DNA of 64,000 nt from contig DAHUYB010000057.1 of NCBI GenBank assembly GCA_027315405.1, forward strand, positions 8,380 to 72,379. Direction: 5' to 3'. This document shows, one piece after another, positions 9,341 through 23,576 of the stretch (within the stretch, counting starts at the first letter, position 1; each line of letters starts with the position of its first letter). This DNA comes from Gammaproteobacteria bacterium (GTDB lineage: Bacteria; Pseudomonadota; Gammaproteobacteria; Natronospirales; REEB76). The notes under the pieces were generated by a model that saw only the letters and a list, made by a program, of their open reading frames with translations, ran no database searches and was not told the DNA's origin. Made by a program: the position numbers and the translations under genes.

Positions 9341-9402
9341 CAGCACTACCCCTGCTACCTCAGGGGCCACCCCGAAGGGTTGAGGTAGCCTCTGGCTAGA
9401 GG
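9341..9402 (-). other. Compact structured element (alternative hairpins/pseudoknot)
   Basis: cccctg/cagggg stem whose loop is complementary to downstream aggtag; gctacctca/tgaggtagc stem; cUUCGg hairpin on the minus strand. Confidence 0.35.
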
Positions 9403-9863: not shown

Positions 9864-10238
9864 ATGCAACAAGAAAAGCGCACCTTTCGCCGAATAGCCG
9901 TTGAACATTCCATACGCATCCTGGAGGCGGATGGCAGCATTCTTCCGGCCATCGCCATCGATGTCTCTCTTACTGGCATGCAGATATTGTGTGACGGGCC
10001 AACCATGAGCAGGATCACCCCCCACGGTACGCAGACCAATGCAGGACACGGGGTCCGAATTCATGTGCGGGTGACATTGCCGGGCATTCCGGATAACCAA
10101 GGCCGGCTGGGGTTGTTCGGCCGTGTCGTAGCGGTGCGCCAGAACGGCGAGGATGAATACCGGATGGGAGTACAGTTCACGGACTTTGAGGCGGGCACCT
10201 ATAACGCTCTTGAGACTTATATTGACAGCCATCTCTAG
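9864..10238 (+). CDS. Stand-alone PilZ domain c-di-GMP receptor
   Basis: RxxxR (RTFRR) and DxSxxG (DVSLTG) motifs; GVQF. Confidence 0.85.
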   Translation: MQQEKRTFRRIAVEHSIRILEADGSILPAIAIDVSLTGMQILCDGPTMSRITPHGTQTNAGHGVRIHVRVTLPGIPDNQGRLGLFGRVVAVRQNGEDEYRMGVQFTDFEAGTYNALETYIDSHL

Positions 10239-10364
10239 GTGGCTTTCCATTCGACCATTAAACTGCCTCAGTTACTCTCATCGTAGTCCTGATGCTTGCC
10301 GGTGGGGCCTTGCCGGCTTACACCTGCCCGGGTGTCGCAAATACCGACTCATAGACCATCGAAA

Positions 10365-11555: not shown

Positions 11556-11557
11556 GG

Positions 11558-11974
11558 TTATATCTCCCGCTCTTCATCCATTCGGGCCCGCCGACGCACC
11601 ACCAGAATTACCACCAGGATCGCGATGCCCAGCAACAGAAACGGTCCGGTCCACAATAACCAGGTGCTGGTCTGCAGCGGTGGATCGTACAGTACAAAAT
11701 CTCCATAACGATTCACCATGTACTGCTTGATTTGCTGCTCACTCCTGCCCTCCGCCACCATCGCATGAATCTGGCGGCGGAAATCCGCTGCCAGCGGTGC
11801 ATCGGAATTGGCAATGTTTTCATCCATGCATTGCAGGCAACGGATTACCTGTAATAGATGCTCGTAGCGGTACTCTAATATGGGATCGGAGAATGGCGGT
11901 TCGCTGTCGATGGCCCAGACCACATGCGTCACCATCAGCAACAGGCAAGCTCCAATCAGCACCCAGGTTCTCAT
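11558..11974 (-). CDS. ccmH: Cytochrome c biogenesis protein CcmH
   Basis: IRCLQC, NIANSDAPLA, RYGDFVLYDPP. Confidence 0.92.
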   Translation of the reverse strand: MRTWVLIGACLLLMVTHVVWAIDSEPPFSDPILEYRYEHLLQVIRCLQCMDENIANSDAPLAADFRRQIHAMVAEGRSEQQIKQYMVNRYGDFVLYDPPLQTSTWLLWTGPFLLLGIAILVVILVVRRRARMDEEREI

Positions 11975-12513
11975 GTGCCCTCGCGGCGCAGGGCCTGGAT
12001 GCGCGGCAGAAAATCGGTACGGATCACTTTGGGGGTGATGGGCCCGATGTACTTGAAGCGGATGATGCCGTGGGCATCGATCAGGAATGTTTCCGGCGCC
12101 CCATAAACACCCCAGTTAATGGCTACGTTCCCGATGGGATCAAAAGCCACGGCGGCATAGGGATTGCCGCGTTCTGCCAGCCATTGCAGTGCACTCTGCC
12201 GGTCGTCCTTGTAATCGAACCCATAAATCGGCACTACCTTCTGCTGGGAAAAGGCGAGCAGTGTCTGCTGTTCATCACGACAGGCAACGCACCAAGTAGC
12301 CCAGACATTGACCAGGGATATTTGGCCTTTGAGTTGATTCTGGTCGAACGTCGCTTTTGGATTGTGCAACCGCGACAAGCTGAAATCCGGCACCGGCTTT
12401 CCGATCAACGGTGAAGATACGATGGTTGGATTGAGATACAGGCCGCGCCAAAAGAATCCCATGAGTGCGAGCAGCACCAGCATGGGCAGAATAAAAAAAA
12501 GTCGCCGGCGCAT
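11971..12513 (-). CDS. ccmG: Thiol:disulfide interchange protein CcmG/DsbE
   Basis: NVWATWCVAC, GVYGAPETF. Confidence 0.93.
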   Translation of the reverse strand: MRRRLFFILPMLVLLALMGFFWRGLYLNPTIVSSPLIGKPVPDFSLSRLHNPKATFDQNQLKGQISLVNVWATWCVACRDEQQTLLAFSQQKVVPIYGFDYKDDRQSALQWLAERGNPYAAVAFDPIGNVAINWGVYGAPETFLIDAHGIIRFKYIGPITPKVIRTDFLPRIQALRREGT

Positions 12514-14510
12514 CAGCGTTCCGGTGCTTTCGCCAGATCCGTATCAGCGTCCTTGGGTGGCGCGCTCACGTCTACGGTTGCCGGCACCCGGACCTGCCGG
12601 TAGCGTTTATCCAGGGTCGCGATGAAGCCGCCCAGCATCATTGTCAAGCCACCCAACCAGATGAATCTGACAAGTGGTTTGTACTCAATGCGCACGCTCC
12701 AGGAGTCCTGCCCAAGCGGGTTACCTAGCGCCACGTACAGATCGCGGAAGGGTCCGGCAGCGATGGCCGCGTTGGTGGTGGTGACATCGTGCCGGAACTG
12801 GCGCTTTTCCGGATAAATCAGCGCGACCTTTTTACCTGCACGGGTCACCGCAAAAGCGCCCTGCACCGCCCGGTAATTCGGACCGGATACAGCATGCACG
12901 CCTTGAAAGGTAAATTGATATCCGTGGACTGCGACGCTGGATCCCGGTTTCATCACCCGGTCAATGGTAATGCCGAGCATGGTGTTGACCGTGACGCCAA
13001 GGATCATTAGGCCAGCACCCAGATGCGCGATGCTCATGCCGAACACACTGCGAGGCAGGCTAACATGCCGGTGATGCAATCGTTGCCACAACCGCTGCAA
13101 CGGCTCCTGCAACGCGCTGAAGATCGTCCAGGCCGCCAACAGCACGCCTGCGGTGGCAATGAAACTGACTTCTGCCCGCAGCAGCACAATCATCACCACC
13201 CCGGCCCAAAGCGCCAAGGCTGCCGGGATACGCAATTTTGACAGGACCTCGGTGACACTGCCGTGTTTCCAGCGTACATAAGGACCGATGCCGATGAGCA
13301 CAAAAAACGGCAGCATTAGAGGCACGAATATATGGTCGAAATACGGTGGCCCCACTGAAATCTGACCGATTTTGAGTGCCCCCAGCACCAGCGGATACAG
13401 GGTGCCAAGCAGCACCGCGGCCGCGGCTACCACCAGAAAGACATTATTGAGCAACAGGAAAGTCTCGCGGGAAAATATTTTGAATCCCCCGCCACGCTGG
13501 CTGAACGTGGGGGCACGCCAGGCATACAGAAAGAGCGCCACACCGACAAACACCCCGAGCATCGCCAGTATGAAGATGCCGCGCCTGGGATCGCTGGCGA
13601 AAGCATGCACCGAAATCAAGATGCCGGAACGCACTAGAAAGGTGCCGAGCAAGCTCAGGGAAAACGCCGCGATGGCCAGCAAAGCCGTCCAACTCTTGAA
13701 AGCGCCGCGTTTTTCGGTGACCGCCAGGGAATGCACCAGCGCGGTCGCGACCAGCCACGGCATGAACGAGGCGTTCTCCACCGGATCCCAGAACCAGAAT
13801 CCGCCCCAGCCCAGCACATAGTAGGACCACCAGCTACCGAAAGTGATTCCGCAGGTCAGAAACAGCCAGGCCACCAGGGTCCAGGGCCGTGACCAACGGG
13901 CCCACATCACGTCCATGCGGCCGCTGAGCAATGCGGCCACCGCAAAGGCGAAGGCAACCGACATACCCACATAACCCATGTACAGCATCGGCGGGTGGAT
14001 CGCCATGCCGGGGTCCTGCAGGATGGGATTCAGGTCCGCACCCTGGGCGGCGGGCGGCAATAGCCGTCCAAACGGGTCAGAAGTAGTCAGCATGAACAGC
14101 AAGAAACCGATGCTGATGATGCCCAGCACACCCAGCACGCGGCTGGAAAAATCCTGCGGCAGATGGCGGCTGAAATGTGCCACTGCCACCGTCCAGATGG
14201 CCAGCACAAATACCCAGAGCAACAGAGAGCCTTCGTGTGCACCCCACACGGCCGTAAATTTATAGACCCAGGGCAACGCGATGTTGGAGTTTGCCGCCAC
14301 ATAAGCTACCGAAAAATCATTGGTCAGAAACGCATAGGCCAACGCGCCAAAGGCCAGCATCACAAAAAAGGACTGGCCGACCGCCGCCGGACGCACCGCG
14401 TTCATCCAGATGAGATTGCCGCGCTGTGCCCCTCCGAGACCAAAAAAGCTCTGGGCCGCCGCCAGGCACAGAGCGATGATCAGCGCCAGATGACCGAGTT
14501 CGGGGATCAT
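12513..14510 (-). CDS. ccmF: Heme lyase CcmF
   Basis: WGAHEGS, HPPMLYMGY, WGGFWFWDPVEN, SVHAFA. Confidence 0.96.
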   Translation of the reverse strand: MIPELGHLALIIALCLAAAQSFFGLGGAQRGNLIWMNAVRPAAVGQSFFVMLAFGALAYAFLTNDFSVAYVAANSNIALPWVYKFTAVWGAHEGSLLLWVFVLAIWTVAVAHFSRHLPQDFSSRVLGVLGIISIGFLLFMLTTSDPFGRLLPPAAQGADLNPILQDPGMAIHPPMLYMGYVGMSVAFAFAVAALLSGRMDVMWARWSRPWTLVAWLFLTCGITFGSWWSYYVLGWGGFWFWDPVENASFMPWLVATALVHSLAVTEKRGAFKSWTALLAIAAFSLSLLGTFLVRSGILISVHAFASDPRRGIFILAMLGVFVGVALFLYAWRAPTFSQRGGGFKIFSRETFLLLNNVFLVVAAAAVLLGTLYPLVLGALKIGQISVGPPYFDHIFVPLMLPFFVLIGIGPYVRWKHGSVTEVLSKLRIPAALALWAGVVMIVLLRAEVSFIATAGVLLAAWTIFSALQEPLQRLWQRLHHRHVSLPRSVFGMSIAHLGAGLMILGVTVNTMLGITIDRVMKPGSSVAVHGYQFTFQGVHAVSGPNYRAVQGAFAVTRAGKKVALIYPEKRQFRHDVTTTNAAIAAGPFRDLYVALGNPLGQDSWSVRIEYKPLVRFIWLGGLTMMLGGFIATLDKRYRQVRVPATVDVSAPPKDADTDLAKAPER

Positions 14511-14971
14511 GAAGCGCCTTTTGCCGCGATTTGGGCCTGCTGGGCTGCCTTGGCCTTCTTGATGGCAGCCGCGACTTCCGGCGGCATGTACTTGGCATCG
14601 TGCTTGGCGAGCACCTGCTGGGCTACGAACAACCCTTGTTTATCAAGCGTGCCGTAAACCACGATGCCCTGCCCTTCACGGAACAGGTCCGGGAGGATGC
14701 CGGTGTACACCACGGGTACCGATTTTTGCATGTCGGTGAGGGTGAAATGCACGGTCATGCTGCCGGGGGAGCGCTGCACGCTGCCCATGGCCACCAGTCC
14801 CCCCATGCGGAAGTGCTGGCCGACATGCGCATCGCCCGCCGCCACCTGTACTGGCGTGAAGTAATACAGCAAGTTCTTGCGAAACGCCTGCAGGCCCAGG
14901 GCGGCGGCCATCGCCACCCCGGCGACAATCACCACGACGATAATCAGGCGCTTGCGGCGTACCGGCGTCAT
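14507..14971 (-). CDS. ccmE: Heme chaperone CcmE
   Basis: PDLFREGQG, LAKHDAKYMP (HxxxY heme motif). Confidence 0.95.
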   Translation of the reverse strand: MTPVRRKRLIIVVVIVAGVAMAAALGLQAFRKNLLYYFTPVQVAAGDAHVGQHFRMGGLVAMGSVQRSPGSMTVHFTLTDMQKSVPVVYTGILPDLFREGQGIVVYGTLDKQGLFVAQQVLAKHDAKYMPPEVAAAIKKAKAAQQAQIAAKGAS

Positions 14972-15144
14972 GTTGGGCGTTCCTCGCTGTGCAGGCTGCG
15001 GCGGCGTAATTCCTTAAGCAGCGCATGTTGCTGGCGTCCCGGCCAAATGGCATTCGCCAGGAGCACCACCAGCGCGGTGCCATAAGCAGGCCAGACGTAG
15101 ACCGCGTAACCGCCCATGGTGAGAAACTCATGCCAGGAGTTCAT
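14968..15144 (-). CDS. ccmD: Heme exporter protein CcmD
   Basis: MNSWHEFLTMGGYAVYVWPAYG, 58 aa; ATGA overlaps with ccmC and ccmE. Confidence 0.9.
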   Translation of the reverse strand: MNSWHEFLTMGGYAVYVWPAYGTALVVLLANAIWPGRQQHALLKELRRRSLHSEERPT

Positions 15145-15878
15145 GATTTCGCCACCAGTGCCCGCACCCACGCGGTATTGCGCTCCCGTTGCAGCACTTC
15201 CACCTGCAGGCGTTTCAGGATGAAGGCGGCGAAATACACCATAAAACCGATAATCATGATAAATAATGGGATGTACATGCTGGGCGGCATTTCTGCCCGT
15301 GGACCGAAGAACACTGTCGGACCCTGGTGCAGGGTGTTCCACCATTTTACCGAATAATGGATGATGGGAATATTGACGATGCCCACGAGCGCCAGGATGG
15401 CGCTTGCCCGGTCGCCGGTGCGCCGGTCCTCGAAGGCGTGATTGAGCGCCATGTAGCCGACATAAAGGAACAACAAAATCAACTCCGACGTCAATCGCGC
15501 ATCCCATACCCAGTAAGTCCCCCACATGGGTTTGCCCCACAAGGAGCCGGTCACCAGGGCGATAAACGTGAAGGATGCGCCCAGCGGCGCCGCGGCGGCA
15601 GACACCGCGTGAGCCAGTTTCATGCGCCAAATGAGGCCGATAGCCGCCGCCACCGCCATAACCATGTAAACCAACATCGACATCCAGGCGCTTGGCACGT
15701 GCACATAAATGATACGAAACCCGTCACCCTGCTGGTAATCCGGCGGCGCCAGCCACAAGCCGCCATACAAACCCGCTGCTATCACGAATAGACTCAGCCA
15801 GCCCAGCCACGGCGCGAGCATGCCGGCAAACTTATAAAAGTACGGCGGCGATGCCAGCTTATGGAACCAGATAAACAT
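15141..15878 (-). CDS. ccmC: Heme exporter protein CcmC
   Basis: YVHVP, WGKPMWGTYWVWDARLT (WWD motif), WWNTLHQ. Confidence 0.96.
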   Translation of the reverse strand: MFIWFHKLASPPYFYKFAGMLAPWLGWLSLFVIAAGLYGGLWLAPPDYQQGDGFRIIYVHVPSAWMSMLVYMVMAVAAAIGLIWRMKLAHAVSAAAAPLGASFTFIALVTGSLWGKPMWGTYWVWDARLTSELILLFLYVGYMALNHAFEDRRTGDRASAILALVGIVNIPIIHYSVKWWNTLHQGPTVFFGPRAEMPPSMYIPLFIMIIGFMVYFAAFILKRLQVEVLQRERNTAWVRALVAKS

Positions 15879-15904
15879 GTTTCTTCCTATTACTGTAGAG
15901 ATCA

Positions 15905-15916
15905 TCTCAATTGCCG
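15905..15916 (+). repeat. Direct repeat, ccmC-proximal copy
   Basis: tctcaattgccg, 11/12 identical to 21245-21256. Confidence 0.55.
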
Positions 15917-16302
15917 ACGCAACCGGTCCACCTTTTGTTTAACTGGTGCGTCGGTGATAAGCAGTTTCCCGAAGATGATATCCTCCGTGGGAGGACGTGC
16001 AATGCTGGAAAACTCGCGCACATAGTAAAGGGTTTTGGCCAGCAGCACGAGATCCGATGTATCCTGCCATCCCAATAATATGCATCGTATGTTGGCATGT
16101 TCCTGGTGCAACTTGCCGATGGCATTGACAGGCATTTCGATAACGTCGCTGGACTCGGTATAAACGGTACGGTCCAAGCGTCCCATCCCATCGCCCCAGC
16201 GACGATAGTATGGACCATTCCCTTCGCCCGACTGTCCTGCGTTCGGGCGCGGCCCGCCCACGATTTTCGCACACAAGCATAAACCACCCTGGTGGGGACA
16301 CC

Positions 16303-16316
16303 ATGATATAGATCAA
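16303..16316. promoter_or_regulatory. FNR/Anr-like box
   Basis: ATGAT-atag-ATCAA, 9/10 match to TTGAT-N4-ATCAA, non-coding context. Confidence 0.5.
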
Positions 16317-16576
16317 CTTGATCAACTCCTCGTCTCGTAATGCGGTATCAACCGCCAACACACTGCAGCGGCAGGCAAACAGCGGTTTTCTTGATCCAGG
16401 TCATTCCGTCCACGTTGGGCTACGCGCAATATCATCCATCAAGGATAATTTGTTTAACAGCATTGTTGCTGCTGAGGGAGGTTGTTGCTGCCGTACGGAT
16501 ATCTGTTTGATTCCGCTCGCTTGCAAGAGGCGGTGAAAATATGCCGTAACGTGCGAGCTTTAAATGGAGAATCAAG

Positions 16577-17314
16577 ATGAGTGGCAAGATGTCTTTTGCC
16601 GACTGTTCCATCAGTGAAAAACTTCTCTACAGTGCCTTCCTGTGCGTAGTGGGTATCGGCTATCTGATGGCGCTGACACTCATCTATCTCACCGACGCCG
16701 GCCTGGATGGCAAGTCGGGAATTAACGTGCAGGACATCGCCATTTCATATTACGGCAACCGCAGCGGTACCAAGATGGAGGCCATGTTGCGGGGGCCGAT
16801 GCGCATTTACAGCAAACCCCTCGATACCGCGCTGCTAGTGGACTGGCTCGAGTCGGGAGCTACCAAGAGCGGCTATGATGCCATCGCGCACCCCATCCTG
16901 CAGAAGGACTGTTTAGCCTGCCACTCCGGCGAAACCGCCAAACGCATGGGGATACCCGACTATTCCATGTACGAGGGCGTGCGTTCTGTCACCCAGAGAA
17001 ACACCGGGGCATCCCTCGAGTCGCTGGTGAAACTATCGCACATACATTTGTTCGGAGTCGGCCTGCTGCTGTTTGTGGTGGGCTTCATCTTCAGACTGGC
17101 GGTGCTGAACCGTTGGCTCAAATGGACATTAATCGTGACACCGTTCGCCTCGATCCTGGCGGATATCCTCGCCTGGTTCCTGACCAAGTGGGATCCGCTA
17201 TACGCCTATGTGGTGGTTATCGCCGGCGCGGTCATGGGGGTGGCATTTACCGCCCAGATTCTGATTTCCCTTTACCAGATTTGGTTATTGCACGTGCCGC
17301 GCGAAGCCCCATGA
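16577..17314 (+). CDS. Uncharacterised 4-TM membrane protein with a c-type heme motif
   Basis: SD ggag; TM1, then a soluble domain with CLACH, then SHIHLFG and three more TM helices. Confidence 0.8.
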   Translation: MSGKMSFADCSISEKLLYSAFLCVVGIGYLMALTLIYLTDAGLDGKSGINVQDIAISYYGNRSGTKMEAMLRGPMRIYSKPLDTALLVDWLESGATKSGYDAIAHPILQKDCLACHSGETAKRMGIPDYSMYEGVRSVTQRNTGASLESLVKLSHIHLFGVGLLLFVVGFIFRLAVLNRWLKWTLIVTPFASILADILAWFLTKWDPLYAYVVVIAGAVMGVAFTAQILISLYQIWLLHVPREAP

Positions 17315-17385
17315 ATTAGGAACGAGATCGGCCGTACTTGGGTGAAACTGTCACAGTTTTCTACGCTACCTTGAGGAGGATTACC

Positions 17386-17871
17386 ATGACAACGCAATAC
17401 GCCACCGGATGGGTCTCCGCGCTATTGGCGCTGAGCATATTGGGCATCAGTCACGGAGTATTTGCTCAGGACCAGGGGCACGCCCACATGATTGATGGCG
17501 TGGCTGTGTACCTCGGTGTCATTCCCGCCGAACTCATCTCCGGCGAATACCCGAAACAGGCTCCCGAGCACCAGATGCACGGCGGCGTGCCGAGCGGGGA
17601 TCACTGGCACCATGTGAACGTGGCTATCTACAACGATGCCACCGGCCAGCGCATCACCAATGCGCGTGTGGTCGCGCAAGTATGGTCGCCGGAAGAGGTC
17701 AACCTGCCGATTCAGAAAAAACCGCTGGAGCCTATGAGCATCGCGGGGGCTGAGACCTACGGCAACTATTTCCACATGCCCGGTACCGCAATGTACTTCA
17801 TCAAAGTGGAAATTGGCCGTCCCGGTTACACGCCGATTATCACCACCTTCAAGTACTACCATCGATCCTAG
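17386..17871 (+). CDS. His/Met-rich periplasmic metal-binding protein, P19/FetP-like
   Basis: SD gaggagg; signal peptide ending VFA; HAHM, HQMHGG, HWHH, LEPM..YGNYF motifs. Confidence 0.7.
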   Translation: MTTQYATGWVSALLALSILGISHGVFAQDQGHAHMIDGVAVYLGVIPAELISGEYPKQAPEHQMHGGVPSGDHWHHVNVAIYNDATGQRITNARVVAQVWSPEEVNLPIQKKPLEPMSIAGAETYGNYFHMPGTAMYFIKVEIGRPGYTPIITTFKYYHRS

Positions 17872-18187
17872 CAGACGGCAGCACGGGGATCGCGGCCAGA
17901 CCAGACATCGGCGCGGAGGATGCGGCCAACTTAGGGAACCCACAATACCAGCGTAAACTGGTGGCCGTTCATCGCGTGGATGGCTAGCGCATAGTGGCCG
18001 AGCGCCAAACGTGTGGAGCGATTGACGGCAAACTGATCGCCGCTCACGTCCCGACCTTGACATTGATGCCGGCATAACCGGGAGCGAGCTGTTGTAGTCG
18101 TAATTATTGGCAAACACGCGCTTGGACAGCGCGGTGAGAGCTGCCCCGTTCCACGCCTCCTCTGTCTTTCCATCGGGACCCCGAAGT

Positions 18188-18613
18188 GGAGTACTGACAA
18201 TGTTCGTCGCGCTGCTTGCCGGTGGTTACCTATTGCTGCAGAGCGGGAGGATATCGGCGAATGCGGATGGCAAGCTGAGCCGGCTTGAACTCTGGATGGC
18301 ACACACCTCTCTGCGCGCGACGCTGCGGCATCAGGCGCCCCGAGGGCTCTGATCCGCTGCCGCTGACGAATGCCAATCTGATCGCTGGGATACCCTTTAT
18401 GGAAGGCCGCCGCAACTTGCGAGCGACGGCGTCGAGGATGACCCGCCGGGGTATTCCTTCTGGAAGATTAAACATGGCATTCGGTTAACCGGAATGCCCT
18501 CGTTCAAGGGTACGCTGATGGATCAGCAAATATGGATGATTGCACTCTTTCTAAAGCATATGAATGCGTTACCGCCGACAGCCGAACATGCATGGCAAGA
18601 AGTCAGGAACTGA
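18188..18613 (+). pseudogene. Cytochrome c pseudogene (frameshifted, CxxCH segment deleted)
   Basis: Across frames: ANADGKLSRLELWMAHTSLRATLR / DPLPLTNANLIAGI / LYGRPPQLASDGVEDDPPGYSFWKIKHGIRLTGMPSF..IWMIALFLKHM; no CxxCH. Confidence 0.8.
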
Positions 18614-18762
18614 TTCACCGTGGCCAGGAAATGCCGGACTGCATCCAATTACCATCATCACACGCGACCGCATCCGGCGCGGCAACGCTCTCGGTACTCT
18701 CCTGGGTAGTGATCGGTTCCCTGGCTTGTCGGATCGGATGTGCGACTTCGGGCGGGTATGTC

Positions 18763-19440
18763 TCACTTGATGTCATGACGCTCAAACGTCTGGCGGATAT
18801 ACAAAACGACCCGGCGGATATCCTTTGGACTCAGTCGGCTGCCCCACGGAGCCATGGCGCTGCCCGGTTTGCCATACTCCACCACAAACATCAGCTGTTT
18901 GTCGCTGATATCCGCCATATCCATGCTGGTGAAATCCTTGGGATTGGGGAACAAGCCGCGGCCCAGCGGAGTTTGGCCGTTGCCCTTATCGCCGTGACAG
19001 ACGCTGCAGTATTTCTGGTAGACGTGTTCACCCACCAGAATATCGAGCTTGGCCTGGGTTATTCCCGCAGGCAGCGGCTGTTGGAGACTGTGGATGTAAT
19101 GCAGCACATCAAATATATCCGCCGGGCTGAGGATTTCCCTCCAACTTGGCATAGCGGTCCCGGCGCGGCCCAGTTCGATGGCGGCAATCATCTGGCTGTC
19201 GTCCAACCGGGCCATGATGATTGGATCGGCGAAGTCGCGCGGGCGTGGCCTCAAAAGCCGGCCGATCGGCGTATCGGCACGGCCATCCGTGCCGTGACAA
19301 GCGGCACAATGCTTCACGTAGATTGCCTTGCCCCACAGGGTGCTTCGCTGGGGAACATTGCCGGCAGTGAGCGGCATGATCCACACCAGACTGAAGATGA
19401 AGCAGACGATCACAAAAGCCACAAGGCGATAAATTTTCAT
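18763..19440 (-). CDS. Periplasmic di-heme cytochrome c
   Basis: Signal/anchor; CAACH and CSVCH, each followed by P.P.DF and AMP.W/AMAPW axial Met motifs. Confidence 0.9.
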   Translation of the reverse strand: MKIYRLVAFVIVCFIFSLVWIMPLTAGNVPQRSTLWGKAIYVKHCAACHGTDGRADTPIGRLLRPRPRDFADPIIMARLDDSQMIAAIELGRAGTAMPSWREILSPADIFDVLHYIHSLQQPLPAGITQAKLDILVGEHVYQKYCSVCHGDKGNGQTPLGRGLFPNPKDFTSMDMADISDKQLMFVVEYGKPGSAMAPWGSRLSPKDIRRVVLYIRQTFERHDIK

Positions 19441-19600
19441 CTTGAGTCCTTTGCTGTGTTTTCTGACAATCAATACGGCTGCTGCGCGTCGGTTCGATCC
19501 CAGACATGGATACCGGCCTTTACCCGCTCAGATGTGCAGCTCCGTCTGCCGGCAATCGCAACAAGCATCACTTCCCTTGCGGCGCTAGCACCGTTCCCGT

Positions 19601-19957
19601 TCATTTGCCTGACACGCCAAACGTCTGCCGCATATAGGCCAGGACCGCCAGAATATCCGCCCGGCTGAGCGAGGGATTGCCGCCCTTGGCAGGCATTGCC
19701 ATGGGCGACCCCGGGCTCTGATAGCCGTTCATGATCCTGTCCACGAGCAGTTTGTCGGAACTACCGAGCACGCCGCCCTTGGTGCTAAAATCCGGCGCCC
19801 CAGGGATGGTGCCCTTGCCGTCCATACCATGGCAGGCAACACAGTTCTGGTTATAGATCTGCTCGCCGTTCGGGACATTCCCGGCGACAACATTGCCGGA
19901 TGCTGTTACCAGCAGCAACCAACCTCCGAGACTGGCTGCCAACATACATAAGCGCAT
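19601..19957 (-). CDS. Periplasmic mono-heme class I cytochrome c
   Basis: SD gaggag; signal peptide; CVACH; AMPAKGG axial Met. Confidence 0.9.
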   Translation of the reverse strand: MRLCMLAASLGGWLLLVTASGNVVAGNVPNGEQIYNQNCVACHGMDGKGTIPGAPDFSTKGGVLGSSDKLLVDRIMNGYQSPGSPMAMPAKGGNPSLSRADILAVLAYMRQTFGVSGK

Positions 19958-20020
19958 ATCGAATCTCCTCTGGTACGCGGGTCGGCGGCCGGTCAATGAC
20001 CATGACGGGCCATGCCATCC

Positions 20021-20646
20021 CTAGAAAGACAACATGACGTTGAAATAAAGCGTGTTGTTATCCGTGGCATTGCGACCGTCGGATAGCCATAGGCCGGGGT
20101 GCTATTCCAGACGTCCTCCAGAGTAGGCGCGTTGTTGAAGGTGCCACCGAATATCGTATCCATACCGCTCCAGTTCGCATGATTGGCATAGCGCACGTCC
20201 ATCATGTCTACCGCTACTTTGCCCGAATCTTGGTCGTAACCGAGTTCAATGACGGTGCCGACATGTGGCGTCGCCTCCCCCGCCAAGTAGAGCGCCAAGG
20301 TTTGCGGGAATGCGGCACTCGGATTCTGCTGCCCCGGAACCGCTTGGCTCAGACTGGTCAGACCAGCCTGCACAATGGCTGATACCGGCATATCACGGTT
20401 GAGGCTCATGCCGGGTGCCTGCTGGGTTTCCTTGGCCACCACCTGTGCGAGACCGGCCATGGTGTAACCATTCAGCTTGAACTGTCTGCCCAAAGGGGTC
20501 AGCGCGGGATAAATGGTGTGGCAGGCCGCACACGCGAGCCCCGTCTGACGCGAGAAGCTCGGCACCGCATACGCTGCCTGCGTAAACGCTGCCATCCCCA
20601 CCGCAACAAGCACTAACGCGAGCGTACTATGGTGCATGTCACGCAT
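20021..20646 (-). pseudogene. cyc2: Cyc2-type fused cytochrome-porin, internally deleted
   Basis: AVPSFSRQTGLACAACHTIYPALTPLGRQFKLNGY signature; NNAPTLEDVWNSTP; original C-terminus DGRNATDNNTLYFNVMLSF* follows directly in another frame (stop 20021-20023); frameshifted ORF runs to 19993. Confidence 0.85.
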
Positions 20647-20718
20647 GATTCATCTCCCTGTGAGAAACAAGACGCAACCTTGCAATAATTAATAGACACC
20701 GATAAGGCAGCGCGTACC

Positions 20719-20732
20719 TTGATCTAAGTCAA
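20719..20732. promoter_or_regulatory. FNR/Anr-like box upstream of cyc2
   Basis: TTGAT-ctaa-GTCAA (9/10), centred ~80 bp before the cyc2 ATG, with an AT-rich -10-like stretch in between. Confidence 0.62.
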
Positions 20733-20749
20733 CTAACCGCGCGATGGGA

Positions 20750-20910
20750 TCAGGGTTCGAGGTTTATACACAGTCCACCTGCAATGGCAAAAGGCGCAAG
20801 CGTATAAATGCCGGGCACCAGCATGACGCCGAGAAAATGGAGTGGCATTGCCATGGTTTTGCCGTCAGCCGCCTGCGGTGCTCGCGTCAAAGATCGGTAC
20901 TGGCACGCCG
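20750..20910 (-). pseudogene. Decayed duplicate of the ccmB 3' end
   Basis: GVPVPIFDASTAG / PLHFLGVML..TLAPFAIAGGLCINLEP* versus CcmB SVPVLIFGAAAAG..PLYFLGAML..TLAPFAIAGGLRVSLES*. Confidence 0.85.
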
Positions 20911-21244
20911 ATGGAAAATATACGCTCCTGATGCCATCGTGGGATAATGCCGACAAGTCACTGTCACTCGCTTTTCCTCACGTCGTTACCCTGCCCAGAT
21001 ATCAATCTGCTGACGCAGCTTGTGTGAGCCCCTCTGTCTTCATGTCGGTATCCAATCGCCCACCACCACATATTGGCGGCACTGACTCCGCCCCTTTCTC
21101 CTGCCAAGCGTCGCACACCGCGCCCATACCGCAGGACGACAAGCACAGTCAAAACGACGAGCCACCACACCCATCCGGAAAATACCTTCCCTTGAAACAT
21201 CTACCCATGTTTGAACGCGACCACAAAATAAATTTCAATTCCCG

Positions 21245-21256
21245 TCTCAATTACCG
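21245..21256 (+). repeat. Direct repeat, ccmB-proximal copy
   Basis: tctcaattaccg, 10 nt past the ccmB stop. Confidence 0.55.
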
Positions 21257-21266
21257 CATCCGGGAC

Positions 21267-21932
21267 TCAGGACTCGAGACTTACCCTTAGACCACCGGCG
21301 ATGGCGAAGGGTGCAAGTGTCAGCGCCAACATCAGCATGGCGCCAAGAAAATACAAGGGCGCCGCCGCCGGATCACCGAGTGCCGCTCGGCCGGCAGCCG
21401 CTGCGCCGAAAATCAACACCGGCACCGACAGTGGCAACACCAAAATAGGCAATAGCATGCCGCCACGCCGTAATCCCACCGTCAGGCCGGCACCCACCGC
21501 GCCTAAAAAACTCAGCACCGGTGTGCCCAAAAGCAGGCTCATGACCAGCACACCCATGGCGTTCGTCGGGTAATTCAACAACAACGCCATCAGCGACGAC
21601 AGGATTACCAGTGGCAACCCAGTCACCAGCCAATGAGTAAATACCCGCAGCAATACCATCCATTCCAGGGGGATCGGACTCAACAGCATAAGTTCGAGAC
21701 TACCATCTTCGTAATCGCTCTTGAATAGACTATCTTGGCCGATCAAGCCCGCCAACAGTGCCGCTACCCAAATGACCCCTGGCGCAAGACTGCGCAACAA
21801 GGCCGGTTCCGGACTAAGTGCCAGTGGAAACAGGGTGGTGACAATCACGAAAAAAATCACCGGCGTGACCAGCTCGCCTCTGCGGCGATAGGCCAAGCGT
21901 AAATCACGCTCAATGAGCGCAGTGACCCTCAC
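21267..21932 (-). CDS. ccmB: Heme exporter permease CcmB
   Basis: ERDLRLAYR, PGVIWVAALLA, DYEDGSLE, HWLVTGLP; GTGA overlap with ccmA. Confidence 0.93.
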   Translation of the reverse strand: MRVTALIERDLRLAYRRRGELVTPVIFFVIVTTLFPLALSPEPALLRSLAPGVIWVAALLAGLIGQDSLFKSDYEDGSLELMLLSPIPLEWMVLLRVFTHWLVTGLPLVILSSLMALLLNYPTNAMGVLVMSLLLGTPVLSFLGAVGAGLTVGLRRGGMLLPILVLPLSVPVLIFGAAAAGRAALGDPAAAPLYFLGAMLMLALTLAPFAIAGGLRVSLES

Positions 21933-22582
21933 GCTGCCAACCCCAGGGCCACGGCTTTGACCGGGAAAGGCCCGAGGTCCAATAACTGATGGCTGGCAAA
22001 TACCGCGAGCCCGCCGCCGGCCAGATGCGCCTTCAACATTTCTGTCAGTAATGCCACTCCCGACACATCCAGACTGGCAAGGGGCTCGTCTAAAAACCAC
22101 AGGCGGACTCTGGCGAGCAGCAGGCGTGCGAGCGCCGCGCGCCTGCGTTGGCCCATCGACAACATCCCGCAGGGGATATCCGCCTGCGCACTCAAACCCA
22201 CCCTTCCCAGAACTCCCTTCACATCGTCCACAGCGCCGCTATCCGGCAGTGCCAGCAGCGCACAGAAGGCGGCCAGGTTTTCCCGTGGGCTCAAACCCAG
22301 TTTGACGCCATTGCTGTGGCCCAGGTAAGCCAGACACGCACGGTATTCCGCACCGCTACGGCGCAGGGGTTCGCCGCGCCAGCGCACCTCCCCTTCATCG
22401 GCACGGCCGAGGCCCGTGAGCACACGGATCAAGGTGGTTTTGCCGGCGCCGTTTTCGCCCTGCACCTGTAGCGCCTCACCGGCAGATAACTGGAAACTAA
22501 GATCCCGGCATAAACAGCGTTCTCCACGCCAAATAGCCAGGTTGTGGGCCGAGAGGGCTTGCGAGGCGGCCGGTTCGTACAT
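21929..22582 (-). CDS. ccmA: Heme exporter ATP-binding protein CcmA
   Basis: GENGAGKTT, YLGH, LSMGQRRR, LDEP. Confidence 0.94.
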   Translation of the reverse strand: MYEPAASQALSAHNLAIWRGERCLCRDLSFQLSAGEALQVQGENGAGKTTLIRVLTGLGRADEGEVRWRGEPLRRSGAEYRACLAYLGHSNGVKLGLSPRENLAAFCALLALPDSGAVDDVKGVLGRVGLSAQADIPCGMLSMGQRRRAALARLLLARVRLWFLDEPLASLDVSGVALLTEMLKAHLAGGGLAVFASHQLLDLGPFPVKAVALGLAA

Positions 22583-22592
22583 GGATCGTTAT

Positions 22593-22681
22593 TGGTGCCC
22601 GGGGCCGGAGTCGAACCGGCACAGCCGTTGCCGGCTAACGGATTTTAAGTCCGTTGCGTCTACCTGTTCCGCCACCCGGGC
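22593..22681 (-). tRNA. tRNA-Leu (TAA)
   Basis: gcccgggtggcggaacaggtagacgc...ttaaaa loop, long variable arm, ggttcgactcc, CCA end. Confidence 0.95.
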
Positions 22682-22700
22682 CGCAAAAACGCCATGCATT

Positions 22701-22774
22701 TGGAGGCTAGGGTCGGAATTGAACCGGCGTACACGGCTTTGCAGGCCGCTGCATGACCACTCTGCCACCTAGCC
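22701..22774 (-). tRNA. tRNA-Cys (GCA)
   Basis: ggctaggtggcagagtggt...ctgcaaa loop, ggttcaattcc, CCA end. Confidence 0.95.
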
Positions 22775-22800
22775 CTACCTGAAGTGTGAAAAACCCGCGA

Positions 22801-22809
22801 AATTTACCA
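22801..22809 (-). promoter_or_regulatory. Putative extended -10 promoter for tRNA-Cys/tRNA-Leu/ccmA
   Basis: TGgTAAATT followed by GC-rich cgcggg discriminator. Confidence 0.4.
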
Positions 22810-22860
22810 CAAATGGCCCGCTAGTTTCAGTTCCAAAGCCGTCAAAACCGGCCGAAGAAA

Positions 22861-22889
22861 TAAAAACCCCGGCTGCTAACCGGGGTTTC
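22861..22889 (-). terminator. Intrinsic terminator after tRNA-Gly
   Basis: aaaccccggttagcagccggggttttta: GC stem plus T run. Confidence 0.65.
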
Positions 22890-22893
22890 AATC

Positions 22894-22969
22894 TGGAGCG
22901 GGAAACGAGGCTCGAACTCGCGACCTCAACCTTGGCAAGGTTGCGCTCTACCAACTGAGCTATTCCCGC
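22894..22969 (-). tRNA. tRNA-Gly (GCC)
   Basis: gcgggaatagctcagttggtagagc...ttgccaa loop, gttcgag, CCA end; follows pgsA as in glyW-cysT-leuZ loci. Confidence 0.97.
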
Positions 22970-23015: not shown

Positions 23016-23576
23016 CTAACGCTTGCGGCTCAACTCCGGCCAGGCCGCGACCAAATACAGACACATTGACCACAGCGTCAACGCCGCCGCGATAAGCAGC
23101 AGCGCCATGCCGATAGCATAGATCGGTACGGCTTTGATGCTATGGCGATACAGCAACAGCACGATCGCCAGCATCTGTGTCGCAGTTTTTGCCTTGCCAA
23201 GCCAGGATACCGCAACGCGTTTGCGTGCACCCAGCCCCGACATCCATTCGCGTAATGCCGAGATGGTGATTTCACGGCCGATGATGATGATCACCGGAAT
23301 CGCCAGCGTCACACGCGCATCCGCTTGCAGCAACAAAACCAGCGCTACCGTCACCATGAGCTTATCCGCTACCGGATCGAGAAACTCTCCGAACGGCGAA
23401 GTCTGGTTCCAGCGGCGCGCCAGCCAGCCGTCAAACCAATCGGTGATACCCGCCAGCGCGAAGATAAGGGCGCTTACCGGCCGCGCCCAGGCAAAATGCA
23501 GGTAGAAAACCGCCACAAACACCGGGATGAGCGCGATGCGCAGCAAGGTCAACAAATTCGGCCAATTGAATTTCAC
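23016..23576 (-). CDS. pgsA: CDP-diacylglycerol--glycerol-3-phosphate 3-phosphatidyltransferase
   Basis: PNLLTLLR, TDWFDGWLAR..FGEFLDPVADK; follows uvrC. Confidence 0.95.
   Translation of the reverse strand: MKFNWPNLLTLLRIALIPVFVAVFYLHFAWARPVSALIFALAGITDWFDGWLARRWNQTSPFGEFLDPVADKLMVTVALVLLLQADARVTLAIPVIIIIGREITISALREWMSGLGARKRVAVSWLGKAKTATQMLAIVLLLYRHSIKAVPIYAIGMALLLIAAALTLWSMCLYLVAAWPELSRKR

What the first reader, a model, noticed from the sequence alone, without database searches (positions are those of the whole stretch)
15905..21256. Cyc2-type electron-uptake islet nested inside the cytochrome c maturation operon
Seen: ccmB and ccmC are separated by ~5.3 kb encoding, on the ccm strand, a Cyc2-signature gene, a mono-heme and a di-heme cytochrome c. 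The other strand carries a heme-c membrane protein, a His/Met-rich periplasmic protein and a broken cytochrome. Known: Cyc2 is the outer-membrane Fe(II) oxidase family of Acidithiobacillus, Gallionellaceae and Zetaproteobacteria and passes electrons to periplasmic cytochromes; ccmB-ccmC are normally adjacent. Inference: an iron-oxidation/extracellular electron transfer cassette sits within the operon that matures its own hemoproteins and is now partly decaying. Relatives may hold the intact system.
Basis: partly seen in the sequence, partly recalled or inferred. Interest (0 to 1): 0.85.

Follow-up and report, generated by a model that had tools for sequence, protein, structure and literature searches.

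The report
Decayed Cyc2 islet inside ccm operon
A 5.4-kb block of cytochrome genes, including a broken copy of a Cyc2-like outer-membrane cytochrome-porin gene, sits between two genes of the heme-attachment operon of an uncultured mine-drainage bacterium; a relative carries the intact block, so it is a swappable accessory module that is decaying here.

Summary
ccmB (21267-22100) and ccmC (15141-15905) are split by about 5.4 kb that 14 other genomes of the genus and 12 of the family or order lack.

One relative, G002, has all eight genes intact:
- two Cyc2-like cytochrome-porins, A and B
- a mono-heme, a di-heme and a third class-I cytochrome c
- a four-helix CxxCH membrane protein (Aq_1264_TM family)
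- a His/Met-rich protein with a P19/FtrA/FetP-like fold
- a CtaG-like protein

In this window four of the eight are dead:
- Cyc2 A is deleted.
- Cyc2 B lost 721 bp, leaving 217 aa and 5 of 16 barrel strands.
- The third cytochrome lost its start and heme site.
- CtaG is a stub.

Cyc2 B cannot be stitched back together, because the missing part is deleted, not frameshifted.

Between G000 and G002 the islet has dS 0.08-0.27, against 1.2 for ccmB and ccmC. The carriers form two non-sister lineages, so the islet was exchanged laterally. A metagenome contig shows a nearly identical ccmB joined straight to ccmC, an empty-site allele.

Cyc2-family kinship rests on the published motif (one A-to-S change) and a 16-strand porin model. 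FeGenie HMMs were not available. Iron oxidation is inferred only, and no RuBisCO was found in the genome.

The parts
21929..22582 (-). ccmA, heme exporter ATPase. First gene of the ccm operon.
   Evidence: NF010061 CcmA 7.7e-68 and TIGR01189, both above cut-off.
21267..22100 (-). ccmB. The ORF is given as listed; the Pfam match covers residues 60-273, so the true start is probably near 21935. This is the upstream flank of the islet.
   Evidence: Pfam CcmB 2.8e-77 and TIGR01190 1.5e-76. dS to the G002 ortholog is 1.22.
20964..21200 (-). Stub of a CtaG-like (Caa3_CtaG) membrane protein gene. The start and most of the body are deleted.
   Evidence: Window 21072-21244 is 93% identical to part of the G002 gene L014:11095-12105, which hits Pfam Caa3_CtaG at 4.4e-49. 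183 bp are missing at 21250, and about 529 bp are missing or replaced in 20848-21068.
20750..20906 (-). Pseudo-fragment resembling the 3' end of ccmB, lying inside the islet.
   Evidence: It is 72% identical in DNA to the G002 ccmB 3' end. The translation ends ...LAPFAIAGGLCINLEP against ccmB ...LAPFAIAGGLRVSLES. The same fragment is present in L018 (ccmB residues 234-277, 62%).
19993..20646 (-). Truncated Cyc2-like cytochrome-porin gene (copy B), 217 aa. It keeps the leader, the heme motif and 5 of 16 barrel strands, followed by an out-of-frame tail.
   Evidence: Residues 1-193 are 92% identical to the intact 448-aa G002 ortholog. A 721-bp deletion lies at 20079. The motif is AVPSFSRQTGLACAACHTIYPAL. 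The strand positions come from the AF2 model of the ortholog.
19601..19996 (-). Mono-heme class-I cytochrome c with an N-terminal hydrophobic segment. Intact.
   Evidence: Pfam Cytochrom_C 3.2e-12. One CxxCH at residue 52. 94% aa identity to G002, dN/dS 0.44.
18763..19473 (-). Di-heme class-I cytochrome c (two CcoP-like domains). Intact.
   Evidence: Pfam Cytochrome_CBB3 2.5e-24, two stretches. CxxCH at residues 56 and 156. The best PDB relative by sequence is 6h5l_B, then CcoP. dN/dS 0.26.
18107..18613 (+). Broken mono-heme cytochrome c. Its pieces lie in three frames, and the start region and the heme-binding site are deleted.
   Evidence: The G002 ortholog L014:7482-8000 is 172 aa with CAICH and hits Pfam Cytochrome_CBB3 at 1.2e-12. 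The window lacks 264 bp at 18186 and 75 bp at 18402. The frames are shown.
17338..17871 (+). His/Met-rich periplasmic protein with a P19/FtrA/FetP-like fold. The likely start is 17386. Intact.
   Evidence: AF2 pLDDT 88. Foldseek finds FtrA 8vv6, FetP 5i0y/3nrp and P19 3lzo at TM about 0.6, E 3e-6 to 6e-5. 13 of 91 relatives weakly hit PF10634; the window protein itself has no Pfam hit.
16577..17314 (+). Membrane c-type cytochrome. It has four hydrophobic segments, CxxCH at residue 112 in the loop after the first one, and a conserved SHIHLFG. Aq_1264_TM family. Intact.
   Evidence: Hydropathy and CxxCH position. C112, C115, H116, H155 and H157 are invariant in 8 sequences. Atlas nearest clusters are PF27139 at 0.99. 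dN/dS 0.06.
16137..16251 (-). Scar of the deleted second Cyc2-like gene (copy A).
   Evidence: About 1.39 kb of G002 (L014:3794-5301), which holds the 457-aa gene 3899-5272, has no counterpart here. G020 keeps only residues 1-33 (L026).
15141..15905 (-). ccmC. The canonical start is the ATG at 15878. This is the downstream flank of the islet.
   Evidence: TIGR01191 1.7e-79. The empty-site contig in X4 joins 21266 to 15878 with 13 letters between. dS to G002 is 1.21.
11971..15144 (-). ccmD (14968-15144), ccmE (14507-14971), ccmF (12513-14510) and ccmG/dsbE (11971-12513). This is the rest of the operon, downstream of the islet.
   Evidence: TIGR03141, NF009729, TIGR00353 and TIGR00385, all above cut-off.

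Best explanation
The ccmB-ccmC interval holds the decayed remnant of an accessory redox islet of about 9 kb. The islet circulates within one uncultured gammaproteobacterial genus found in mine drainage.

Intact form (G002). The ccm-strand part encodes two Cyc2-like outer-membrane cytochrome-porins and two periplasmic class-I cytochromes c, plus a CtaG-like protein. I infer that this part exchanges electrons with a soluble extracellular donor, most likely Fe(II), and passes them through the periplasmic cytochromes to the cell's aa3-type cytochrome c oxidase. The opposite strand encodes a membrane c-type cytochrome, a P19/FetP-like metal-binding protein and a third cytochrome c. I infer that these act on periplasmic Fe or Cu.

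Origin. The islet was inserted precisely between the ccmB stop and the ccmC start. It has moved between lineages by recombination.

State in this genome. The outer-membrane step is lost. Cyc2 A is deleted, Cyc2 B is truncated to 217 aa, the third cytochrome c is broken and CtaG is a stub. The mono-heme and di-heme cytochromes, the membrane cytochrome and the P19-like protein remain intact.

Shown here: the anatomy, the decay, the presence/absence polymorphism and the young age of the islet relative to its flanks.
Inferred: the Cyc2-type function, the electron path and the role of the metal module.
For: Anatomy and family hits.

Distribution of the islet:
- 18 genomes of the genus had a ccmC match. 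The islet is present in 4 of them (G000, G002, G016, G020).
- In the other 14, ccmB abuts ccmC.
- ccmB also abuts ccmC in all 12 family or order genomes whose loci were examined.

Lesions. The deletions relative to G002 were mapped base by base. Contigs of run X3 cross them with 0 differences.

Age of the islet relative to its flanks:
- DNA identity between G000 and G002 is 92-97% over most of the islet, against 63-83% for the ccm flanks.
- dS is 0.08-0.27 for five islet genes, against 1.21 for ccmC and 1.22 for ccmB.
- AcnA identity to G000 is 84% for the carriers G002 and G016. It is 85-86% for the empty-site genomes G010, G005, G014, G017 and G018, and 95-96% for G020.

Empty-site allele. 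One X4 contig joins 21266 to 15878 with 13 letters between. Its ccmB/ccmA side differs from the window at 1 of 935 positions.

Cyc2 kinship:
- The published criteria were read in Keffer et al. 2021 (PMC8406198, passages).
- All 66 aligned homologs have exactly one CxxCH and a [VIT]PS[FY][AST]RQT-x3-CxxCH-x3-PxL block. 65 of the 66 end in F or W.
- The AF2 model of G002 Cyc2 B has pLDDT 86 and 16 long strands.
- Foldseek finds 16-strand porins, including OprP 2o4v and OprO 4rjx, the templates named by Keffer et al..

Electron sink and maturation. One CtaD-like oxidase gene was found and no ResB, so System I is the only maturation system found.

The Cyc2 B-like plus mono-heme pairing recurs in G028 outside a ccm context.

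Selection. dN/dS is 0.06 for the membrane cytochrome and 0.18-0.44 for the other intact genes.
Against: - No Cyc2 HMM could be run and no cluster placement was possible. The window gene and its G002 ortholog carry FSRQT, which the strict published screen PXFAR[Q/K][T/Y] would have discarded. Only 20 of the 66 aligned homologs pass the strict motif.
- Keffer et al. state that the function of many Cyc2 homologs is unverified.
- No RuBisCO large subunit was found in this genome, so the organism is not an obvious iron lithoautotroph.
- Cyc2 B was lost independently in G016 and G000, and Cyc2 A was lost in G000 and G020. The Cyc2 genes are therefore dispensable.
- In G028 the Cyc2 B-like gene lies next to a quinol NO reductase, a Crp/FNR regulator and a hemerythrin. 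This points to a low-oxygen or NO context rather than aerobic iron respiration.
- dN/dS of 0.18-0.44 for three of the surviving genes is only moderate constraint.
- Relatedness of the carrier lineages rests on one protein (AcnA) plus ccmB and ccmC, not on a genome tree.
- Expression is not shown. The only RNA-library contigs belong to a relative and may be DNA carry-over.
Confidence: 0.7

Rival explanations
1. The islet is mainly a periplasmic metal (Cu/Fe) homeostasis or detoxification module for metal-rich acid drainage, not a respiratory electron-uptake chain. Its core would be the P19/FetP-like protein, the membrane c-type cytochrome and the CtaG/CopD-like protein. The Cyc2-like porins would be accessory.
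For: - The His/Met protein has a FtrA/FetP/P19/CrdA-like fold.
- 13 of 91 relatives weakly hit PF10634 Iron_transport.
- The membrane cytochrome and the P19-like gene are adjacent in all 5 genomes of the order that have the membrane cytochrome: G000, G002, G016, G020 and G008.
- In L020 the pair sits beside an RND efflux operon. In L021 the membrane cytochrome lies within about 4 kb of a P-type ATPase and a small cupredoxin-like ORF. These three names come from my reading of the translations, not from a family search.
- These two genes survive in every carrier while the Cyc2 genes are lost. The membrane cytochrome has dN/dS 0.06.
- No RuBisCO was found.
Against: - Five of the eight islet genes are c-type cytochromes. 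Two of them carry the Cyc2 motif, which is known only from cytochrome-porins.
- The Cyc2 B plus mono-heme pairing recurs without the metal pair in G028.
- No copper or iron transporter gene lies in the islet itself.
- The window P19-like protein has no Pfam hit.
Confidence: 0.3
2. The islet was present in the ancestor of the genus and inherited vertically. Most species then lost it cleanly, and the high islet identity reflects strong constraint rather than recent transfer.
For: - All four carriers have the islet at the same site and in the same gene order.
- G000 and G020 share two lesions, the loss of Cyc2 A and the 75-bp deletion in the third cytochrome c. This fits descent within that pair.
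Against: - Synonymous divergence is 5-15 times lower in the islet (0.08-0.27) than in the adjoining ccmB and ccmC (1.2).
- Intergenic and pseudogene stretches of the islet are also 92-97% identical.
- By AcnA, G002 and G016 are no closer to G000 than the empty-site species are.
- An empty-site allele exists beside a ccmB that differs at 1 of 935 positions from the window.
Confidence: 0.08
3. The arrangement is an assembly or binning artefact of a metagenome-assembled genome.
For: G000 is a 99-contig assembly with 2.5% contamination. Paralogous Cyc2-like genes break contigs in G016 and G020.
Against: - The same insertion site is seen in three other genomes.
- X3 contigs from another sample tile the region and cross each deletion junction with 0 differences.
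- One RNA-library contig of 5,070 nt in X18 links ccmB to the di-heme gene in a relative.
- The window contig runs unbroken through ccmA to ccmI.
Confidence: 0.02

Closest known systems
Cyc2 fused cytochrome-porins (Cyc2 of Acidithiobacillus ferrooxidans, Cyc2PV-1 of Mariprofundus ferrooxydans, Cyt572 of Leptospirillum), as defined by Keffer et al. 2021, PMC8406198 (passages read)
   Same: The intact G002 orthologs and the own-genome paralog share these features:
- a leader peptide and a single CxxCH near the N-terminus
- the (A)xPxF[A/S]RQT block before the CxxCH
- PxL with P at the 4th residue after the CxxCH
- about 450 aa
- a 16-strand barrel model that matches OprP and OprO
- an aromatic C-terminal residue

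   Different: - Copy B has Ser where the consensus has Ala.
- Cluster 1, 2 or 3 placement is unknown.
- The host shows no RuBisCO, and iron oxidation is untested.
- The window copy is a 217-aa stump, below the 365-aa limit and without a barrel.
cyc2-cyc1 part of the rus operon of Acidithiobacillus ferrooxidans, where Cyc2 is followed by the di-heme c4 cytochrome Cyc1 and an aa3 oxidase. The operon layout is recalled from general knowledge. Keffer et al. mention Cyc1 only in passing.
   Same: A Cyc2-like gene is followed on the same strand by small periplasmic class-I cytochromes c, one of them di-heme. A cytochrome c oxidase is present in the genome.
   Different: - There is no rusticyanin and no oxidase genes in the islet.
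- The di-heme protein's best PDB relatives by sequence are 6h5l_B and CcoP. Cytochrome c4 did not appear for it.
- The cassette is nested in the ccm operon and carries a second Cyc2-like gene and a divergent three-gene unit.
P19/FtrA/FetP periplasmic Cu-dependent iron-transport proteins (FtrABCD, FetMP; PDB 8vv5, 3nrp, 3lzo)
   Same: The predicted fold of the His/Met-rich protein is similar (TM about 0.6, E 3e-6 to 6e-5). The family has nearly invariant Met/His positions: M64, H65, H76 and M117.
   Different: - Sequence identity is 10-18%, and the window protein has no Pfam hit.
- No Ftr1/FetM permease gene is nearby.
- The partner gene is a four-helix membrane c-type cytochrome (Aq_1264_TM), which is not part of known Ftr or Fet systems.
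Flexible genomic islets exchanged by homologous recombination in conserved flanks (general concept, recalled)
   Same: Presence/absence polymorphism at one fixed site between conserved genes. The cargo is much younger than the flanks. No integrase and no flanking repeats were seen.
   Different: The site lies inside an essential-looking operon, between ccmB and ccmC, which otherwise sit no more than about 160 nt apart (only 13 nt in the X4 empty-site contig). A ccmB 3' pseudo-fragment lies within the cargo.

Membership tests
Cyc2 fused cytochrome-porin (criteria of Keffer et al. 2021) | N-terminal signal peptide | tested here: inconclusive
   A hydrophobic 19-mer lies at residues 10-28, before AYA|VPSF. 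No signal-peptide predictor was available.
Cyc2 fused cytochrome-porin (criteria of Keffer et al. 2021) | Exactly one CXXCH, near the N-terminus | tested here: met
   CAACH at residue 39 of the window ORF. All 66 aligned homologs have exactly one CxxCH.
Cyc2 fused cytochrome-porin (criteria of Keffer et al. 2021) | AXPXFAR[Q/K][T/Y] motif upstream of CXXCH | tested here: inconclusive
   The window copy and G002 copy B read AVPSFSRQT, with Ser for Ala, so the strict pattern fails by one residue. G002 copy A and the own-genome paralog read AVPSFARQT and pass. 20 of the 66 homologs pass the strict pattern, and all 66 have [VIT]PS[FY][AST]RQT. Fig. S8 of the paper shows the motif by cluster; it is a supplement and could not be seen.
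Cyc2 fused cytochrome-porin (criteria of Keffer et al. 2021) | PXL motif 4 residues after CXXCH | tested here: met
   CAACH-TIY-PAL. The spacing is 3 residues before P in all 29 sequences matched by the full pattern.
Cyc2 fused cytochrome-porin (criteria of Keffer et al. 2021) | Length of at least 365 aa | tested here: not met
   The window ORF is 217 aa after a 721-bp deletion. The G002 ortholog is 448 aa and meets the criterion.
Cyc2 fused cytochrome-porin (criteria of Keffer et al. 2021) | 16-stranded beta-barrel porin fused to the cytochrome part | tested here: not met
   The window copy keeps only strands 1-5 in frame. The G002 ortholog meets the criterion: AF2 pLDDT 86 and pTM 0.83 with 16 long strands, and Foldseek finds 16-strand porins with OprP 2o4v at rank 31 and OprO 4rjx at rank 49.
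Cyc2 fused cytochrome-porin (criteria of Keffer et al. 2021) | Score above cut-off with a FeGenie Cyc2 HMM, and placement in cluster 1, 2 or 3 | not testable with these tools
   Pfam and NCBIfam have no model that hits. No named Cyc2 reference sequence could be fetched.
Cyc2 fused cytochrome-porin (criteria of Keffer et al. 2021) | Fe(II) oxidase activity | not testable with these tools
   Needs biochemistry.
System I cytochrome c maturation operon (ccmABCDEFG..I) | Each gene scores above the curated cut-off of its NCBIfam or Pfam model | tested here: met
   ccmA, B, C, D, E, F and G are all above cut-off, and a CcmI domain lies at 10365-11555. ccmH was not looked for.
P19/FtrA/FetP (Pfam PF10634 Iron_transport) | Match to the family HMM | tested here: not met
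   The window protein has 0 Pfam families. 13 of 91 relatives hit it weakly, best E 1.6e-4.
P19/FtrA/FetP (Pfam PF10634 Iron_transport) | P19-type beta-sandwich fold | tested here: met
   AF2 pLDDT 88. Foldseek top hits are FtrA 8vv6, FetP 5i0y and 3nrp, and P19 3lzo at TM 0.59-0.63. The metal ligands were not mapped.
Aq_1264_TM (Pfam PF27139) | Membership of clusters that carry the family | tested here: inconclusive
   The Atlas nearest clusters score 0.98-0.99 with 241-243 of 256 shared features, and 95-100% of their members carry PF27139. The local Pfam copy gave no hit, so no HMM score exists.
Caa3_CtaG (Pfam PF09678) | Match to the family HMM | not tested
   The G002 gene matches at 4.4e-49. 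The 78-aa window stub was only aligned as DNA, 93% over 173 nt.

The most novel reading that the evidence does not exclude
The islet is a self-contained, laterally exchanged plug-in for extracellular or periplasmic metal redox chemistry. It is slotted into the ccmB-ccmC junction so that its five c-type cytochromes are made together with the heme-attachment machinery. Its divergent unit, an Aq_1264-type membrane cytochrome c with a P19-like metal-binding protein and a soluble cytochrome c, would be a previously undescribed periplasmic Fe(II) or Cu(I) oxidase that works with, or instead of, the Cyc2 porins.
Probability: 0.15. Interest if true: 0.7.

Novelty: new variant of a known kind. Interest (0 to 1): 0.45.

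Why it matters
Cyc2 is the most widely used marker for microbial iron oxidation, yet most homologs sit in uncultured organisms and have no known function.

This locus shows a Cyc2-type cassette behaving as a small mobile accessory unit within one mine-drainage genus:
- It is gained at a fixed site inside the cytochrome maturation operon.
- It is exchanged between species.
- It erodes gene by gene, with the Cyc2 genes going first.

That warns against reading a Cyc2 motif hit as a working iron oxidase. Here the hit is a 217-aa stump.

The locus also supplies an intact reference (G002) with two divergent Cyc2 paralogs and defined candidate partners for expression studies.

Finally, it links two families of unknown function, Aq_1264_TM and a P19-like His/Met protein, to a cytochrome-rich context.

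I found no paper describing cyc2 within a ccm operon. The searches with cyc2+ccmB+ccmC and with cyc2+'ccm operon' returned the same 2 papers, both unrelated.

Tried and rejected
Rejected: 721 bp are absent, not frameshifted.

Cyc2 HMMs (FeGenie) and cluster placement. Not available. Pfam and NCBIfam gave no hit for any Cyc2-like protein.

Source names. Among 120 listed homologs the names were only 'cytochrome C' or 'hypothetical'. The listing of cluster members returned no names or accessions for 10 clusters.

PDB sequence search with G002 Cyc2 B. Nothing below E 0.039.

Mobile-element signs. The repeat finder on 15000-22600 gave only 4 short two-copy direct families and one 18-nt inverted pair, none at the islet borders. 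GC content shows no clear step: 0.53-0.60 in the islet against 0.54-0.64 in the flanks. I did not run a dedicated integrase or transposase search.

Promoter and terminator scan of 14900-22700. It found 2 promoter-like sites against 4.6 +/- 2.0 in shuffles, and 12 terminator-like sites against 7.3 +/- 2.7. This is uninformative about how ccmC is transcribed.

Complex prediction of the membrane cytochrome with the P19-like protein, heme riding along. No verdict: score 0.01 against a mark of 0.32, controls not run. This counts neither for nor against binding.

The search for homologous proteins for the His/Met protein. It gave 712 clusters at E <= 1e-3.

RNA evidence. The three RNA runs held only 0.13-0.14 of the sampled words. 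I laid X18. Its 3 contigs are 90-96% alike and belong to a G020-like relative with an intact-length Cyc2 B (992 letters where the window has 271). The tool states that presence in an RNA library does not show transcription. Nothing can be said about expression of the window's own copy.

X5. One loose end of 97 letters before 20080 resembles the undeleted G002 sequence. I compared it by eye. It is a single contig, so it is only a hint that undeleted alleles exist close to this strain.

G016 copy A is cut by contig ends, so its state is unknown.

Seven further order genomes with a ccmC match were given no locus and were not examined.

Supplements of Keffer et al. (Figs S6-S8, motif logos by cluster) could bear on the Ser variant but are closed.

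Claims resting in part on unpublished genomes:
- G007, G009, G011 and G017 supply 4 of the 14 empty-site genomes.
- G007 and G017 appear in the AcnA list.
- G009 and G011 are counted in the Cyc2-like tally.

Full report
**What is there**

The - strand of the window carries a System I cytochrome c maturation operon:
- ccmA, 21929-22582
- ccmB, 21267-22100
- ccmC, 15141-15905
- ccmD, 14968-15144
- ccmE, 14507-14971
- ccmF, 12513-14510
- ccmG, 11971-12513
- a CcmI-domain gene, 10365-11555

Each scores above its curated cut-off. ccmB and ccmC are separated by about 5.37 kb.

Between them, the ccm strand holds three genes:
- A 217-aa ORF (19993-20646) with a hydrophobic leader and the block AVPSFSRQTGLACAACHTIYPAL.
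- A mono-heme class-I cytochrome c (19601-19996).
- A di-heme class-I cytochrome c (18763-19473).

The other strand holds three more:
- A 245-aa protein with four hydrophobic segments and one CxxCH (16577-17314).
- A His/Met-rich protein (17338-17871).
- Fragments of a cytochrome c in three frames (about 18107-18613).

**The intact form and the lesions**

A genome of the same genus, G002, has the same interval at about 8.65 kb with eight intact genes. In order along the locus from ccmC to ccmB they are:
- Cyc2-like copy A, 457 aa.
- The 245-aa membrane cytochrome.
- The 177-aa His/Met protein.
- A 172-aa cytochrome c with CAICH.
- The di-heme cytochrome.
- The mono-heme cytochrome.
- Cyc2-like copy B, 448 aa.
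- A 336-aa Caa3_CtaG protein (Pfam 4.4e-49).

A base-by-base alignment shows what the window lacks:
- About 1.39 kb holding copy A.
- 264 bp and 75 bp that remove the start region and the heme site of the 172-aa cytochrome.
- 721 bp of copy B, residues about 190-429.
- Most of the CtaG gene.

Copy B cannot be repaired by reading through a frameshift, because the sequence is gone. The lesions are reproducible. Contigs of run X3 cross the junctions at 16137-16251, 18186 and 20079 without a single difference (records 5, 7, 9). X3 comes from the same study as the possible source run but from another sample.

**Distribution**

18 genomes of the genus had a ccmC match. Four carry the islet: G000, G002, G016 and G020. 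In the other 14, ccmB abuts ccmC. Four of those 14 are unpublished genomes (G007, G009, G011, G017). In all 12 family or order genomes whose loci I examined, ccmB is also next to ccmC, with no gene-sized gap. Seven further order genomes with a ccmC match had no locus and were not examined.

Each carrier shows a different state:
- G002 is intact.
- G016 keeps only the C-terminal end of copy B.
- G020 has an intact copy B but shares with G000 the loss of copy A and the 75-bp deletion in the third cytochrome.
- G000 is the most eroded.

The membrane cytochrome, the His/Met protein, the di-heme cytochrome and the mono-heme cytochrome are intact wherever contigs allow a view.

**Evolution**

- DNA identity between G000 and G002 is 92-97% over most of the islet, including intergenic and pseudogene stretches. 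It is 63-83% in the ccm flanks.
- dS is 0.08-0.27 for five islet genes, against 1.21 for ccmC and 1.22 for ccmB.
- By AcnA, 30 kb away, G002 and G016 are 84% identical to G000. That is no closer than the empty-site species at 85-86%. G020 is 95-96% identical.

So the islet has moved between at least two lineages of the genus more recently than those lineages split.

In run X4, from another mine-drainage study, one contig joins position 21266 to 15878 with 13 letters between. This is ccmB stop, a short spacer, then the ccmC ATG. Its ccmB/ccmA side differs from the window at 1 of 935 positions. The shorter side of that joint is only 37 letters, so this is one contig's worth of evidence for an empty-site allele in a near-identical strain.

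I found no repeats at the borders and no compositional step. Homologous recombination in the conserved ccm flanks is the simplest vehicle, but that is an inference.

**Is it Cyc2?**

Keffer et al. 2021 (PMC8406198; I read the passages returned) define the family by these features:
- a signal peptide
- one CXXCH
- a consensus AXPXFAR[Q/K][T/Y] before the CXXCH
- PXL after the CXXCH
- at least 365 aa
- a 16-strand porin

G002 copy A and an intact paralog elsewhere in this genome read AVPSFARQT and fit exactly. That paralog is L002:1483-2832, 449 aa. It sits next to a Crp/FNR regulator, a HemN fragment and a cupredoxin.

Copy B, including the window stump, reads AVPSFSRQT, which is one residue off.

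In an alignment of 66 homologs:
- all 66 have exactly one CxxCH
- all 66 have [VIT]PS[FY][AST]RQT-x3-CxxCH-x3-PxL
- 65 end in F or W
- only 20 pass the strict pattern

The AF2 model of G002 copy B (pLDDT 86, pTM 0.83) has a short helical heme part and 16 long strands. Foldseek returns 16-strand porins, including OprP 2o4v and OprO 4rjx, the templates named in the paper.

The family is large. 2,386 proteins scored E <= 1e-5 among the 8,000 candidates scored, named at most 'cytochrome C'.

I therefore file the intact genes as Cyc2-like cytochrome-porins. The window gene is a remnant that fails the length and barrel criteria. FeGenie HMMs and cluster placement could not be done.

**The other strand**

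The 245-aa protein has CxxCH and a SHIHLFG motif invariant in 8 sequences. Its nearest Atlas clusters carry PF27139 Aq_1264_TM at 0.98-0.99, often auto-named 'elongation factor-1 alpha'.

The His/Met protein belongs to a family of 712 representative clusters. Its model (pLDDT 88) matches FtrA, FetP, P19, Tp34, DUF4426 and CrdA at TM about 0.6. 13 of 91 relatives weakly hit PF10634, and the window protein hits nothing.

In a survey of the 66 genomes of the order, the membrane cytochrome occurs in 5 and the P19-like protein in 6. The two genes are adjacent in the five genomes that have both.

In L020 the pair, followed by a mono-heme homolog, lies beside what reads as an RND efflux operon. In L021 the membrane cytochrome lies about 4 kb from what reads as a P-type ATPase and a small cupredoxin-like ORF. 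Those three names come from my reading of the translations and were not tested. This suggests a periplasmic metal-handling role for the pair.

**Physiological frame**

- The genome (98% complete) has no ResB, so System I is the only maturation route found.
- It has one CtaD-like cytochrome c oxidase gene.
- It has no RuBisCO large subunit.
- In G028 a copy B-like gene (56% identity) followed by a mono-heme homolog (52%) lies next to a quinol NO reductase, a Crp/FNR regulator and a hemerythrin.
- The DNA occurs in mine-drainage metagenomes of two studies that I laid, X3 and X4.
- Named relatives are labelled Natronospirales or Gammaproteobacteria MAGs.

**Verdict**

The genomic claims of the finding are right and can be sharpened. 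The interval holds a laterally exchanged accessory islet inserted exactly between the ccmB stop and the ccmC start. It is intact in one relative and half-eroded here.

The functional label rests on family resemblance only, and it cannot apply to this genome's dead Cyc2 genes. What survives here is two periplasmic cytochromes c and a membrane cytochrome paired with a P19-like protein. dN/dS is 0.06 for the membrane cytochrome and 0.18-0.44 for the others.

No paper found by my searches describes cyc2 inside a ccm operon or Cyc2 together with P19.

Noticed in passing
window 20750-20906 (-); also L018:5711-5845: A pseudo-fragment of a ccmB 3' end (62% aa, 72% nt to the real one) lies inside the islet, between the CtaG-like gene and Cyc2 copy B. 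This suggests that the CtaG gene, or a replacement ccmAB segment, arrived in a separate event that displaced an older ccmB end.
   Followed up: partly
L002 (G000:C99:86235-89783), gene at 1483-2832: The same genome keeps an intact 449-aa Cyc2-like gene with the exact AVPSFARQT motif. It lies between a Crp/FNR-type regulator with a HemN C-terminal fragment on one side and a plastocyanin/azurin-family cupredoxin on the other. FNR followed by Cyc2 is conserved in G005, G008, G012 and G019. G002 islet copy A is 69% identical to this gene.
   Followed up: partly
L056 (G028:C5:93000-112000), 6848-12643: In another family of the order, a copy B-like Cyc2 gene and a mono-heme cytochrome c sit directly after a 763-aa quinol NO reductase (NorB_cytochrome_c-like plus COX1). 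A Crp/FNR regulator and a hemerythrin gene lie beside them. This hints at a low-oxygen or NO-linked role.
   Followed up: partly
window 15878/21266, seen in run X4: One metagenome contig carries an empty-site allele: ccmB stop, 13 letters, then the ccmC ATG. Its ccmB/ccmA side differs from the window at 1 of 935 positions. The islet is therefore polymorphic within or very near this species.
   Followed up: partly
run X18 on window 15488-22200: A soil metatranscriptome library holds two contigs (3,417 and 5,070 nt) of a G020-like relative with an intact-length copy B. The contigs stop on either side of the convergent gene ends at 18473-18761. Transcription is not shown by this.
   Followed up: no
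window 22593-22969 (-): Three tRNA genes (Leu-TAA, Cys-GCA, Gly-GCC) lie immediately upstream of ccmA, between it and ORF 23016-23576. I read that ORF as pgsA-like from its translation; it was not tested.
   Followed up: no
window 16577-17314 (+): Atlas clusters of this Aq_1264_TM membrane cytochrome family are auto-named 'Elongation factor-1 alpha', which looks like a propagated misannotation.
   Followed up: no
window 18532-19668 (+): A 378-aa ORF lies antisense to the di-heme and mono-heme genes and has no Pfam hit. It is most likely a shadow ORF of this GC-rich stretch.
   Followed up: partly
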